Assembly: GCA_964016885.1 (NCBI GenBank)
Contig: OZ024748.1
Coordinates: 56,854,001-56,918,000 of the forward strand
Direction: 5' to 3'
DNA: 64,000 nt
Source: Eledone cirrhosa
Taxonomy: Eukaryota
In this document: positions 728 to 26,421 of the stretch, one piece after another
How positions within the stretch are numbered: the first letter of the stretch is position 1
Layout of the letters: each line of letters starts with the position of its first letter
Translations under genes and position numbers: made by a program
The notes under the pieces: model-generated
Database searches by the model: none
The model's input: the letters and a program-made list of their open reading frames with translations, nothing else
What the model was told of the DNA's origin: nothing

Positions 728-820
<93 letters not shown>

Positions 821-948
821 AAAGTTTTATTTAAAATTGTTGGGTTACAACAAGTAAATATTTTATAACTGATATAAAGCACTCGACAAGTTTTTGGAGT
901 AGATATACGATATTAAACAAATGGAAACTATATTTATAAAACCATAGT

Positions 949-1014
949 TATTTCATTATACATATTTCAGGGATACCATATTAAAAATATGGCATGTCTT
1001 CGTCAGATAAAATA
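949..1014 (-). ncRNA. Type I hammerhead motif (inverted copy of 1135-1200)
   Basis: Reverse complement reads TATTTTAT CTGACGA AGACATGCC...CCCT GAAA TATGTA TA ATGAAATA, with one extra stem II mismatch. Confidence 0.72.
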
Positions 1015-1134
1015 CAATATATAACCAGTTTTATAAATAATTTTGACGTACCATAAATATAGCGACCATTAAGGTCTTAATGGTCGCTATATTTATGGTA
1101 CGTCAAAATTATTTATAAAACAATTTATATATTG

Positions 1135-1200
1135 TATTTTATCTGACGAAGGCATGCCATATTTTTAATATGGTATCCCTGAAATATGTATAATGAAATA
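1135..1200 (+). ncRNA. Type I hammerhead ribozyme motif
   Basis: Stem I TATTTTAT/ATGAAATA; core CTGACGA; stem II AGG.ATGCCATATT-ttt-AATATGGTAT.CCT; GAAA; self-complementary stem III ATATGTAT; AUA cleavage triplet. Confidence 0.8.
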
Positions 1201-1240
1201 AATATGGTTTTATAAATATAGTTTCCATTTGTTTAATATC

Positions 1241-1302
<62 letters not shown>

Positions 1303-3022: not shown

Positions 3023-3402
<380 letters not shown>

Positions 3403-3984: not shown

Positions 3985-4161
3985 TGTGCTGTTTTTTCAG
4001 TACGTCCTCATCAGATAAAATACATAAATTGATGTACGACATACCTTAACTGTCTTGATCATTTCAGTCTTGGCAGTAATTAAACCACCAAGACAGTTGA
4101 GGTATGTCGTACATCAATTTATGTATTTTATTTGATGAGGACATACTGAAAAAACAGCACA
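3985..4161. repeat. Fold-back inverted repeat (about 73-bp arms, about 31-bp spacer) overlapping a hammerhead motif
   Basis: 3985-4057 versus 4089-4161 reverse complement, about 3 mismatches. Confidence 0.92.
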
Positions 4162-13492: not shown

Positions 13493-13782
13493 AACTTTGC
13501 CTTTCATCCTTACGGGGTCGATAAAATAATGTACCAGAAATACACTGGGATAATTGCTGGCCTTGTGCCCAAAGTAGAAACAATTATGTCTAATAACTGT
13601 TTCAACTTTTGGCACAAGACCAGCAAATTACCTAGTACATTACTGGTACTTTATTTTATCGACCCCGTAAGGATGAAAGGTAAAGTTAACCTCGACGAGA
13701 TTTGAACTCAGACCGTAAATGGATGTAACTATGCTAGAAAGCATGGTGTCCAAACCTCTAACGATACTGTCAATTCACCACC
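13493..13782. mobile_element. Two family A SINEs tail-to-tail (5'-truncated + copy 13493-13586; full-length - copy about 13593-13782)
   Basis: Same centre and tail motifs as 9267-9457, in opposite orientations. Confidence 0.88.
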
Positions 13783-22790: not shown

Positions 22791-22825
<35 letters not shown>

Positions 22826-25800
22826 TATTATTACTTTTTTTTTTTTTTTTTTTTTTTCCCCAATTCAATGATGTTCCAGAACAATGTAAACGAGATAATT
22901 GCCAATTTGGGTTCTGGAACAAAAAGGATCATTGGCAATAAGGGCAGGGGCCCCAAGTTATCACAACCTGGGCCCGCCCGTCATCGTGCCATTGTAATAG
23001 AGCCAAACAGGGCATTTAGTCTTGGCTGCTGGAACGTACGGACGCTGCTTGACAGGGATTCTTTGGAGCGTCCTGAACGAAGGACCGCTCTTGTTGCGAA
23101 GGAGCTTCGACGTTACGATCTTGACATCGTGGCTTTGTCTGAGACGAGGTTAGCTGGAGATGGTCATCTTACGGAATTTTGTGGAGAATATACATTCTTC
23201 TGGAAAGGAAGAGATGAAGGAACCAGAAGAGAGGCTGGGGTAGGATTTGCTGTTAAGACTGTACTGGTGAATAAATTGGAAGAATTCCCAGTGGGGATTA
23301 GTGAGCGTCTTATGTCCATGAGAGTTCCGCTGGACAAGGGAAGATATGCTACCCTGGTGAGTGTGTATGCTCCAACTATGAATTCTGTCGATGAAGAAAA
23401 ACTGTCCTTTTACCATGCCTTGAAAGGTGTTTTAAGAAATATCCCTCAGGCAGACAAAGTCATCGTGCTTGGTGACTTTAATGCTAGAGTGGGTAGGGAT
23501 TTTAACACATGGAATGTAATCGGAAGGCATGGGGTGGGAAAGTGTAACAGCAATGGTATGCTCTTGCTGCAGATGTGTGAGGAGCTGGATCTGTGTGTTA
23601 CCAACACCATGTTCCAACAAAAGAACAAATTCAAGACCACATGGATGCATCCTGCATCTAAGGAATGGCATCTTTTGGACTACGTCCTAGTCAGGATGCG
23701 TGACAGACAGGATGTGCGGTGTGTTCGTGTTCTTCGTGGAGCTGAGTGCTGGACGGACCACCGCCTGGTACGCGCAAAAGTGAATCTAATCACCAAACGT
23801 AAAATCCGGGCTCCTGGTGTTACCCTGCCCAAAAGATTGAATGCTGCTCGTCTTAAGGATAAAAATGTGAAGAGGACATTGGAAGAAGAGATGCAGGCTG
23901 CAGATCTTGGTGAGGATTGGCCGACCCTTAAAAAGTCGGTTTATGATGTAGGCAGACGTGTTCTGGGATTGGTGCAGAGAAAACATCAGGACTGGTTTGA
24001 TGAGAAAGATGTGCATATAGATGACTTGTTGGCTGATAAGAGGCGCGCTCTGTCACGCTACTTGACGGCAAGACCACAGGAGAGGAATACGTTGCATGAG
24101 GAGCTCAGGGATGTAAAATCACGTGTTAGGCGGAGTCTTTCTCAGATGAAGGATCAGTGGTGGAGTGAGAAGGCTGGTGAGATACAAACTGCGTCTGATT
24201 GCAATAACACAAAGCTGTTGTACAGTCTCTTGCGTGAGGTTTATGGACCGTCTTCTTCTCTGGTGACACCGATTCGCAGCAGGGATGGCAAAGAACTTCT
24301 TCGTGACTCACAGGGAATTCTACGAAGGTGGCGGGAGCACTTTGATGATCTTTTGAATCAGCCGTCTGTCGTCAGTGAAGATTTCCTCAATCTCATTCCG
24401 GAAAGTCCTGTGAAAGTAGCTCTCGCAGAGCCTCCGACACTTGTGGAGGTTGCAGTGGCTATTTCGAAGCTGAACAGTGGAAGATATCCAGGTATGGATG
24501 GCATACATGCTGAGCTCCTACAATATGGTGGTGAGAGACTCCTGCAGCATCTTCACTCTCTGTTTGGGGGGATATGGGCTAATGAATCCGTGCCTGAGGA
24601 CTGGAGAGATGCAGTAATGGTGGTCTTGTACAAGGGAAAGGGTAACAGGAATGATTGTGGGAACTACAGAGGTATATCATTGCTTTCTGTCGTGGGGAAA
24701 GTTTTATGTAGGGTGCTTCTGGACCGTCTGCTGACACACATTGCAGATTGTGTCCTTCCTGAAAGTCAATCTGGTTTTCGTGTTGGACGCGGCACTACTG
24801 ATATGATCTTCTCAGCTAGACAGCTCCAGGAGAAGTGCATTGAACAGGGCTTGGATCTGTATCAGGTTTTTGTCGATCTGACAAAGGCTTTCGATACTGT
24901 CAACAGAGATGCATTATGGAAGGTTCTCCAGAAACTTGGTTGCCCTGATAAGTTCCTTGCTTTAGTTAGGTCTTTCCATGACGACATGAAGGCTTGGGTT
25001 AATGTCGGAGGTAACATGTCGGAGCCTATCTCAGTAAAAAATGGAGTGAAACAGGGGGATATTCCAGCACCGACCCTGTTTGCCATATACTTTGCAATGG
25101 TTTTCTGTGTTGCATTCAGGAATTGCGAGCATGGTGTTTACATCCGATATCGAACCTCAGGCAGCATATTTAACATCAGGCGCTTTGCTGCGAAGACAAA
25201 AGTATTTACATCAGTCATAAGAGACCTCTTGTATGCAGATGATTGCGATCTTGTAGCGCACACAGAGAGTGATATGCAGCACATTTTGAATGTATTTTCT
25301 GACGCTTGCACTGCCCTGGGTTTGACTGTCAGTCTCAAGAAAACCGTCGTCATGTACCAACCTGCACCTGGTAGGCAGTACACTGAACCAAACATCTATG
25401 TGTATGGCAAACGACTTGGAGTGGTTGATCAGTTTGTCTACCTGGGAAGCACTGTCAATCGATACGGCAACCTTGACGGTGAAATCTCACTTAGGATTAG
25501 GAAAGCAAGTGATGCTTTCGGAAAGCTAGAAAGGCGACTCTGGGGTCGGCGAGACATATGCAGGAGGACAAAGGTAAAGGTGTACAGGGCATGTGTACTC
25601 TCTTGTCTTCTTTATGCCTGCGAGACCTGGGTCACATATCGACGCCACCTTAAGCAATTGGAGCGTTTCCATCAGATGTGTCTCAGACGGATACATGGCG
25701 TTCGCTGGAGGGACCACATCAGTGATGTCGAGATTTTGGAAAGCTCTATGTGTGACAGTATAGAAGCTCTTGTGCTTAAGCAGCGACTCCGTTGGAGTGG

Positions 25801-26421
25801 TCACCTTGCCAGGATGAAGGATTCTAGAATACCAAAACAACTCTTCTATGGAGAGTTGGTTAAAGGAAAACGACCGCCACATAAACCAAAAAAGAGGTAT
25901 AAGGATTCCTTGAAGGCCTCTCTGAAAGACGCTAACATCTCTGCTGATACATGGGAAAATATTGCTGCTGATCGTAATAAATGGAGAAAGACTGTATATG
26001 AGGGAAAAGTTGCCTTTGAGGCATCTCGAATCGCACACGAGAAAGTAAAGCGGGACGTGAGGAAGGGTATTGCTGTTGCACTTCCAGACGGCGAGGGTCC
26101 TCCTATGTTTCTGACATGCAGCGTCTGTGCGAGACTCTGCCTAAGCAAAGCTGGACTCGAAAGTCATCTTCGCAGTCATAAAGTAAGACCAGTGGTTGAC
26201 TACCAGGCTGCTGTTGGAGATGCTACTCATCATGCTTGCCAAACATGTGGTAGAGAATGTAAATCAGCAGGAGGACTCAAGCGACATGCAAAAGTACACG
26301 AACTCCAACCACAGCCGACTATTCCCAGTAAATGTTTTGGTTGCCGACTCTGTGCAAGACATTTTGGATCATTGGCTGGGCTAAAAAGCCACATTCGATC
26401 GCAGCACTGTTAGTTGCTATC

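What the first reader, a model, noticed from the sequence alone, without database searches (positions are those of the whole stretch)
903..1246. Spacer-less palindrome placing an intact hammerhead on both strands
Arms of about 171 bp with a 2-nt loop put ribozymes at 1135-1200 (+) and 949-1014 (-), facing outward. A transcript from either strand would contain a hammerhead preceded by its own antisense copy. It could fold either as a long dsRNA rod (ADAR/Dicer substrate, ribozyme masked) or as the ribozyme. This superficially resembles ambisense viroid-like rods. The few arm mismatches argue for a real, slightly aged structure rather than a fold-back read.
Basis: partly seen in the sequence, partly recalled or inferred. 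Interest (0 to 1): 0.75.

Follow-up and report, generated by a model that had tools for sequence, protein, structure and literature searches.

The report
Head-to-head stump of Penelope retrotransposon
The palindrome is in the assembled sequence, but it is an ordinary short insertion of a very common Penelope-like jumping gene: two partial copies of the element's front end, each with a predicted self-cutting RNA motif, likely copied separately onto the two ends of a cut TA repeat and joined back to back.

Summary
The palindrome is confirmed: arms 903-1073 and 1076-1246, loop GT, 5 mismatches. Each arm has a type I hammerhead core. The unit is really 818-1241, because the left arm carries an extra 85-nt 'tail', and both ends abut (TA)n. 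The arm is the pseudo-LTR of a Hydra-clade Penelope-like element whose RT/GIY-YIG frame starts about 50 nt after the tail. A 30-nt piece has 5,606 exact matches in the genome. Of the first 100, 58 sit in outward-facing pairs and none in inward pairs. All 48 pairs scored have the tail on exactly one arm. Fold points vary; none of 15 other pairs of the closest subfamily folds at this base. In 27 of 48 pairs neither arm contains the other, which favours two separately primed cDNAs over self-copying. Many arms stop at one base 21 nt upstream, the likely RNA start. Read-through RNA is predicted to form a rod, with about 87-90 kcal/mol against the ribozyme, so this is no switch. Inverted pLTR, one-sided tail and opposite-strand hammerheads are all published, and this scan reported the same layout for other palindromes of this genome. 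No spanning reads or RNA data were obtained.

The parts
763..817 (.). (TA)n tract, left half of the inferred target (preceded by (TC)n 733-762)
   Evidence: Sequence. Both outer ends of nearly all pairs abut (TA)n (flanks printed).
818..907 (-). PLE 'tail': 5'-UTR extension after the pLTR, present on this arm only. 903-907 is a TATAT that also matches the right (TA)n; the tail ends at a second TA run of the element.
   Evidence: In L062 the same sequence continues into the ORF, ATG about 50 nt after the tail end. One-sided in 48 of 48 pairs.
908..1075 (-). Left pLTR arm, 5'-truncated, reaching element position -2 (position 0 = window 1076); the loop bases GT belong to this arm
949..1014 (-). 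Type I hammerhead motif, core intact, one stem II pair broken (position 997)
1074..1076 (.). Head-to-head junction, blunt, no microhomology; 19 and 21 nt short of the family's strong 5' stop at -21
1076..1241 (+). Right pLTR arm, 5'-truncated, no tail; ends at the first TA run of the element
1135..1200 (+). Type I hammerhead motif; predicted cut after 1192 (AUA); short near-palindromic helix III region (AUAUGUAU), dimer type
   Evidence: Stem II has changes on both sides in 9 of 11 pairs over 21 hand-picked variants.
1242..1299 (.). (TA)n tract, right half of the inferred target
   Evidence: Sequence

Best explanation
The palindrome is one short insertion of a Hydra-clade Penelope-like retrotransposon, two 5'-truncated copies of its hammerhead-bearing pseudo-LTR joined head to head in a (TA)n tract, likely made when both cut strands of the target each primed reverse transcription of the element's RNA and the two cDNAs were joined at their far ends. 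SHOWN by calls: family identity and linkage to an RT + GIY-YIG frame; two fixed outer ends (+166 without tail, about +255 with tail), both at TA runs of the element; one of each per pair; variable, often non-nested inner ends; a strong stop at -21. INFERRED: the endonuclease cuts both strands of (TA)n; each 3' end pairs with one of the two TA runs in the sense RNA; RT copies towards the 5' end and runs off at the RNA start (-21, an Inr-like TCA*CT) or stops earlier; the cDNA ends are trimmed (here by 19 and 21 nt) and joined bluntly or by microhomology. The hammerheads are passengers. They were copied uncut, the stump lacks the inferred start site, and any read-through RNA is predicted to zip into a 171-bp rod that keeps them off.
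For: Linkage: the arm lies about 0.9 kb downstream of the EN frame and directly upstream of tail and ATG in long copies. Clade motifs RIRWR, KSDKT, YRDD, CxCx5C, CDLCVEE and CRH match the Hydra description, as do (TA)n targets (PMC8557442 section 11 passages). Abundance: 2,785 + 2,821 exact 30-mers, control 0. Neighbours within 5 kb among the first 100 hits: 29 outward, 0 inward, 3 tandem. Tail on exactly one arm in 48 of 48 pairs. The tail-less arm is >10 nt longer at the centre in 27 of 48, the tail arm in 12, and 9 are within 10 nt; in those 27, neither arm can be a copy of the other. Arms of one pair share a source: median 1.5 differences in about 144 nt vs 12 between loci, in the 34 pairs with both cores. 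5' stop: 223 copies reach -12, 153 reach -17, 85 reach -22; junctions join at A(-21) to (TA)n or to the partner arm. L026 joins a tail-bearing arm of another family to a tail-less arm of this one (one case). In vitro, the Anolis PLE protein cuts and extends both strands, starts at two internal sites that bound the tail, and does not need hammerhead cleavage (PMC11167929, parts 1-2 of 4).
Against: No RNA, no start-site mapping and no spanning read. Several unpaired copies carry a tiny inverted piece at the 5' end (L017, L024, L026, L109, L162), and four inverted arms stop short of the fixed outer end (L009, L145, L155, L161); both suit snap-back self-priming in a minority. Arms ending before +140 were excluded from the 48 pairs by the script's threshold, so 48 of 48 holds only for pairs with two near-complete outer ends. 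This palindrome itself is nested (tail arm longer by 2 nt), so alone it fits either model. Junction placement can be off by several bases for diverged subfamilies. The -22 count has no matched control for point mutations. Frangieh et al. found no homology between target and RT start site, whereas TA pairing is inferred here. Pfam names neither the ORF nor three homologues tested, and no tree was built.
Confidence: 0.72

Rival explanations
1. Same element, but the inverted arm arises by self-priming: one strand (cDNA, or an antisense RNA as proposed for Adineta PLEs) folds back and copies itself.
For: Proposed in PMC3846280 (Discussion passage). Arms of a pair are near-identical. Tiny 5' inverted pieces and aborted inverted arms occur. 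This palindrome is nested.
Against: Self-copying needs one arm to contain the other. This fails in 27 of 48 pairs, by up to about 3 kb, unless large one-sided deletions followed. It does not explain the two-family pair L026.
Confidence: 0.17
2. A functional RNA device: a self-masking double ribozyme that switches between a dsRNA rod and active hammerheads, or moves as a palindromic unit.
For: Both cores are intact and a rod is predicted. Penelope is heavily edited in lizard, and a palindromic repeat in frog (PMC5625713 passages).
Against: Forcing the hammerhead stems costs 87-90 kcal/mol and their pair probability is 0.0 in read-through RNA. No other pair of the closest subfamily shares this centre (0 of 15). 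There is no A>G excess in 80 arms (A>G 12, T>C 24) and none in these two. Single minimal PLE hammerheads did not cleave in vitro (PMC4209133 part 2).
Confidence: 0.05
3. Assembly artefact (fold-back read or chimera).
For: No record spans the locus.
Against: The flanks differ and are each covered by low-depth contigs (about 6 and 8). The mirror stops at biologically defined ends with a one-sided tail, the arms differ at 5 positions, and 47 other pairs have the same layout.
Confidence: 0.03
4. Two independent insertions, or a later inversion, that happened to meet head to head.
For: The family is abundant and targets (TA)n; this pair's arms differ more (5) than the median pair (1.5).
Against: Outward 29 vs inward 0; one tail per pair; no TA run at the junction; both arms share the single-T subfamily mark.
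Confidence: 0.03

Closest known systems
Hydra clade of C-terminal EN+ Penelope-like elements (Craig et al. 2021, PMC8557442; passages and two supplement rows seen)
   Same: RW(R/K), DKT, CxCX5C linker, CxxC and CxH around the catalytic E and N, (TA)n targets, hammerhead in the pLTR.
   Different: Unit about 3.9 kb with a 0.9-kb 3' UTR (described as generally <3 kb). Tail 85-90 nt (30-40 bp given for PLEs). RWR instead of RWK. Not placed on a tree here.
PLE insertion units with an inverted 5'-truncated pLTR and one-sided tail (Adineta Pen2a, PMC3846280; D. virilis Penelope, PMC2377424; Fig. 2 legend of PMC8557442; passages seen)
   Same: Head-to-head inverted pLTR, tail on one end, palindrome at the junction, Inr-like TCACT in the pLTR.
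   Different: Here both arms are ORF-less stumps of 166-258 nt; no TSD can be defined inside (TA)n. The published explanation is self-priming, whereas these counts favour two cDNAs.
Minimal type I hammerheads of metazoan PLEs (Cervera and De la Pena 2014, PMC4209133; parts 1-2 of 4 read)
   Same: Long helix II, short palindromic helix III region, dimer-type design. The paper reports dual motifs 100-700 bp apart on opposite strands in Schistosoma.
   Different: The pair next to the core is A-U (G-U in relatives), not G10.1-C11.1; helix I is 8 bp. Not assayed.
Anolis Poseidon PAc in vitro (Frangieh et al. 2024, PMC11167929; parts 1-2 of 4 read)
   Same: Two internal RT start sites bounding the tail; both DNA strands cut and extended; uncut RNA used as template.
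   Different: There the start sites lie in an AC-rich stem-loop inside the ORF with no homology to the target; here both ends lie at TA runs upstream of the ATG. The parts read do not address the inverted joint.
Animal non-LTR retrozymes and ambisense viroid-like RNAs (bioRxiv 10.64898/2026.07.22.740005, part 1 of 5 read; viroid-like rods recalled)
   Same: Type I hammerhead in a short non-coding unit; a rod-like fold.
   Different: Not a head-to-tail tandem array; the two ribozymes are mirror copies of one motif; the arm is the pLTR of a coding element; no circle shown.

Membership tests
EN+ Penelope-like element (pLTR fragment) | Arm sequence is the terminal repeat of an element with RT and C-terminal GIY-YIG frame | tested here: met
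   YRDD RT, IIY...YVG EN, arm at both ends in L062. Frames in the copies seen are broken or partial; Pfam gives no name.
EN+ Penelope-like element (pLTR fragment) | Inverted 5'-truncated copy at the 5' end, tail on one end only | tested here: met
   48 of 48 scored pairs
Hydra clade | RWK and DKT in RT; CxCX5C linker; CxxC and CxH in EN | tested here: met
   RIRWR, KSDKT (KSDET in L062), CNCRNNSKC, CDLCVEE, CRH. In 29 homologues >=600 aa: CxCx5C 25, KxDKG 0, KxDK(T/S) 10.
Hydra clade | Insertion into (TA)n | tested here: met
   Flanks printed for 48 pairs
Hydra clade | Groups with Hydra RTs in a phylogeny | not tested
   No reference Hydra proteins were in hand
Type I hammerhead ribozyme | CUGANGA / GAAA / UH core | tested here: met
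   Both arms; core invariant except N7 in 21 variants selected by that core
Type I hammerhead ribozyme | Helices I and II supported by covariation | tested here: met
   94% of cells paired; 9 of 11 stem II pairs change on both sides, stem I on one side only; slid controls 39-62% paired. The 21 rows were picked from 71 motifs found by a pairing filter, so the count leans towards the structure.
Type I hammerhead ribozyme | G10.1-C11.1 pair; Rfam match | tested here: not met
   A-U here; no Rfam hammerhead hit
Type I hammerhead ribozyme | Self-cleavage | not testable with these tools
   Genomic proxy negative or weak: 274 copies differ just before the cut site vs 420 one base later; 2 of 25 read by eye truly begin there
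Non-LTR retrozyme | Head-to-tail tandem units, each with a hammerhead | tested here: not met
   Two inverted arms only; the 3 tandem neighbours lie 2.7-4.0 kb apart
MITE or mobile palindrome | Fixed internal sequence shared by dispersed copies | tested here: not met
   Centre differs from copy to copy

The most novel reading that the evidence does not exclude
The many pairs of this family record how Penelope-like elements build inverted ends: twin priming. Both target strands start reverse transcription at two different TA runs of the sense RNA, run off the RNA's 5' end at one Inr base, and are joined head to head, occasionally from RNAs of two different families (L026). This would replace the published antisense self-priming idea and give exact substrates for an in vitro test.
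Probability: 0.6. Interest if true: 0.5.

Novelty: new member of a known kind. Interest (0 to 1): 0.24.

Why it matters
The locus itself is ordinary: one of probably well over a thousand such pairs (58 of the first 100 hits are paired, of 5,606; an extrapolation from one chromosome stretch). The family matters as data on an open point. Craig et al. 2021 name the formation of tandem/inverted structures as unresolved, and the one-tail rule, the non-nested arms and the -21 stop make a two-cDNA model directly testable. If transcribed, such near-perfect rods could be a large source of dsRNA for ADAR in this host; that is untested. Other windows of this scan reached the same mechanism, so this adds a family, not a new idea.

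Tried and rejected
Rfam: nothing at gathering threshold; only hairpin look-alikes far below threshold at E<=10. Pfam on family frames and on 3 of 49 homologues: no meaningful hit. PDB sequences: none. The Atlas look-up gave no result. Sequencing runs: no RNA holder listed. Four runs were laid (three contig sets of one sample and one RAD library) and none spans the palindrome; the junction-only test was not obtained, so continuity stays open. Ribozyme-cut ends: none of 96 arm starts lies at +117, and there is no excess in genome counts. The script labelled 10 of 25 as ending there, but by eye 8 of these continue upstream with point changes or small deletions, leaving 2; no control set was read by eye. 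Fossil A-to-I edits: no A>G excess in 80 arms; six loci with G at the cut position show subfamily variants, not edit clusters. Cap-derived G: only L185 shows a G not explained by the partner arm; inconclusive. Arms from two subfamilies in this palindrome: not supported, both have the single-T mark, and CAATT was found in 2 places genome-wide. Host gene: no host exon recognised among ORFs >=130 aa in the window or the 9 kb upstream; short exons would be missed. Cofolding two ribozyme copies paired stem II between molecules instead of the dimeric active form: uninformative. Search of earlier findings by sequence: two unrelated notes.

Full report
OBSERVATION. The inverted repeat is present as described: arms 903-1073 and 1076-1246, loop GT, five mismatched positions, rod energy -243 kcal/mol, z = -43. 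Each arm has a type I hammerhead layout (1135-1200 on +, 1014-949 on -; CUGACGA, long stem II, GAAA, UAUGUA, cut triplet AUA ending at 1192). Over 21 variants from related families, picked from 71 motifs that passed a pairing filter, stem II changes on both sides in 9 of 11 pairs while the core is fixed. Rfam does not recognise the motif. The minus copy has one stem II pair broken.

THE UNIT IS LARGER AND ASYMMETRIC. The left arm goes on for 85 nt (818-902) of sequence found in many other copies and then meets (TA)n at 763-817. The right arm stops at 1241 and meets (TA)n at 1242-1299.

WHAT IT BELONGS TO. The window lies in a 3.0-Gb genome (G000:C8). Walking upstream from other copies leads through a 0.9-kb pyrimidine-rich UTR into a GIY-YIG-type frame and an RT frame. 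In L062 the arm and tail also stand directly before the ORF, with the ATG at +307 and the tail end at +256 (0 = window 1076). The arm is therefore a pseudo-LTR and the extension is the PLE tail. The motifs RIRWR, KSDKT, YRDD, CxCx5C, CDLCVEE and CRH and the (TA)n targets match the text description of the Hydra clade (PMC8557442, section 11 passages). Pfam names none of the frames. All 49 homologues at E<=1e-20 lack an informative name; the best is from Argonauta at 45% identity, which suggests an octopod host. No tree was built.

HOW COMMON. A 30-nt piece over the ribozyme has 5,606 exact matches, control 0. Among the first 100 (C1, 1-83 Mb), neighbours within 5 kb are outward-facing 29 times, inward-facing never, and tandem 3 times. 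In 68 loci covering those hits plus the window, 48 outward pairs had both arms reaching +140, and all 48 carry the tail on exactly one arm. Pairs with a shorter arm (L145, L155, L161) fell below that threshold, and 32 unpaired or unresolved ends are listed. For the closest subfamily all 90 hits were listed; they form 16 pairs with centres of 2 (this one), 8, 12, 12, 16, 19, 19, 20, 23, 28, 36, 36, 36, 41, 350 and 5,166 nt. The probe starts at this fold point, so shorter centres cannot appear.

MECHANISM. The outer ends are fixed at two TA runs of the element (+166 and about +255), one of each per pair. The inner ends vary: the tail-less arm reaches >10 nt further 5' in 27 of 48 pairs, the tail arm in 12, and 9 are within 10 nt. 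In those 27, neither arm contains the other, so neither can be a self-primed copy of the other, whether of cDNA or of an antisense RNA as proposed in PMC3846280 (Discussion passage), unless large one-sided deletions followed. Arms of a pair are still from one source (median 1.5 vs 12 differences, 34 pairs). Inner ends pile up just downstream of -21: 223 exact copies reach -12, 153 reach -17 and 85 reach -22. In 20 loci chosen for failing the -22 probe, many junctions start at A(-21) or overlap at -19 to -20 (one of the 20 is a point change). That base sits in TCACT, the Inr-like word noted for Adineta Pen2a, so it is likely the RNA start (inferred; earlier notes of this scan gave this reading for other families). 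In vitro, a PLE protein cuts and extends both strands and starts at two internal sites that bound the tail (PMC11167929, parts 1-2). Together these favour twin priming from the two target strands, with joining of the cDNA ends. This palindrome is a blunt join of cDNAs 19 and 21 nt short of -21. One locus, L026, joins a tail-bearing arm of another family to a tail-less arm of this one. Against the model: tiny inverted pieces at the 5' ends of some unpaired copies and four short inverted arms suggest that snap-back also occurs, and this palindrome alone is nested.

THE RIBOZYMES. In read-through RNA of either strand the hammerhead stems have pair probability 0.0, and forcing them costs 87-90 kcal/mol. 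From the fold point onward stem II forms (0.97-0.99) but stem I hardly does. Minimal PLE hammerheads did not cleave as single motifs and cleaved weakly as dimers (PMC4209133 part 2), and cleavage was not needed for insertion in vitro. I found no genomic sign of cutting in this family, and a subfamily with G at the cut position, which breaks the UH rule (recalled), occurs at three or more separate loci. There is no A>G excess in 80 arms. The five arm mismatches reduce to G>A and A>C in the left arm and one 3-nt cluster in the right arm, which creates a small local hairpin (1120-1124 with 1131-1135) and may be one event (inference).

ARTEFACT? Unlikely: the flanks differ and are each covered by low-depth contigs, and the mirror stops at the family's own ends. 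No read spans the locus and no RNA run was listed.

KNOWN OR NEW. The inverted 5'-truncated copy with a one-sided tail is the standard PLE layout (PMC8557442 Fig. 2 legend; PMC3846280; PMC2377424 passages). Dual hammerheads 100-700 bp apart on opposite strands were reported in 2014 (PMC4209133 part 1). Editing of Penelope and of palindromic repeats is reported in other animals (PMC5625713 passages). An octopus repeat annotation has no occurrence of 'palindrom' or 'hammerhead' in its main text (PMC13282606; supplements not read). I did not find a twin-priming model for PLEs in print in seven searches (the three hits for 'Penelope' plus 'twin priming' were seen as listings only); subscription papers are not covered. 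This scan has noted the same layout and model in several other windows of this genome.

VERDICT. Observation confirmed; interpretation partly supported. A new member of a known kind, ordinary as a locus, useful only as one more family supporting a testable insertion model. Interest 0.24.

Noticed in passing
L026:1501-1880 (G000:C3 near 315.39 Mb): Two-family head-to-head pair: a tail-bearing arm of an unrelated palindrome family joined, through a 7-nt inverted piece, to a tail-less arm of this family; suggests two different RNAs in one insertion.
   Followed up: partly
L195/L196, L204/L205, L206: A subfamily with G in place of the cut-site A, in both arms and at separate loci, so it likely moved without a cleavable triplet.
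   Followed up: partly
L111:842-1100: Arm of this family that switches near +155 to a diverged tail, possibly a template switch between families.
   Followed up: no
window 3985-4161: Second outward palindrome, 80-bp arms, with a hammerhead-like core on each strand (right copy TTGATGA, broken); resembles other families listed.
   Followed up: no
window 3023-3402: Palindrome with about 63-bp unique arms around a 250-bp TA-rich centre, a different geometry.
   Followed up: no
window 13493-13687: Imperfect 95-bp-arm palindrome without a hammerhead core match.
   Followed up: no
window 45960-46040 (-): Solo hammerhead motif of another family (helix III region TGCGCA) near (TA)n.
   Followed up: no
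window 22793-26410 (+): Open frame of 1,206 codons with AP endonuclease, RVT_1 and C2H2 fingers: an apparently intact non-LTR element.
   Followed up: no
L072:4964-6964 (-), L067, L068: Other Hydra-type families with long RT-EN frames lying next to or inside copies of this family.
   Followed up: no
window 1152-1157: Stem II holds GCATGC (an SphI site, recalled); RAD reads of run X10 pile up at 993/996 and 1153/1156, so this repeat takes many reads in such libraries.
   Followed up: no
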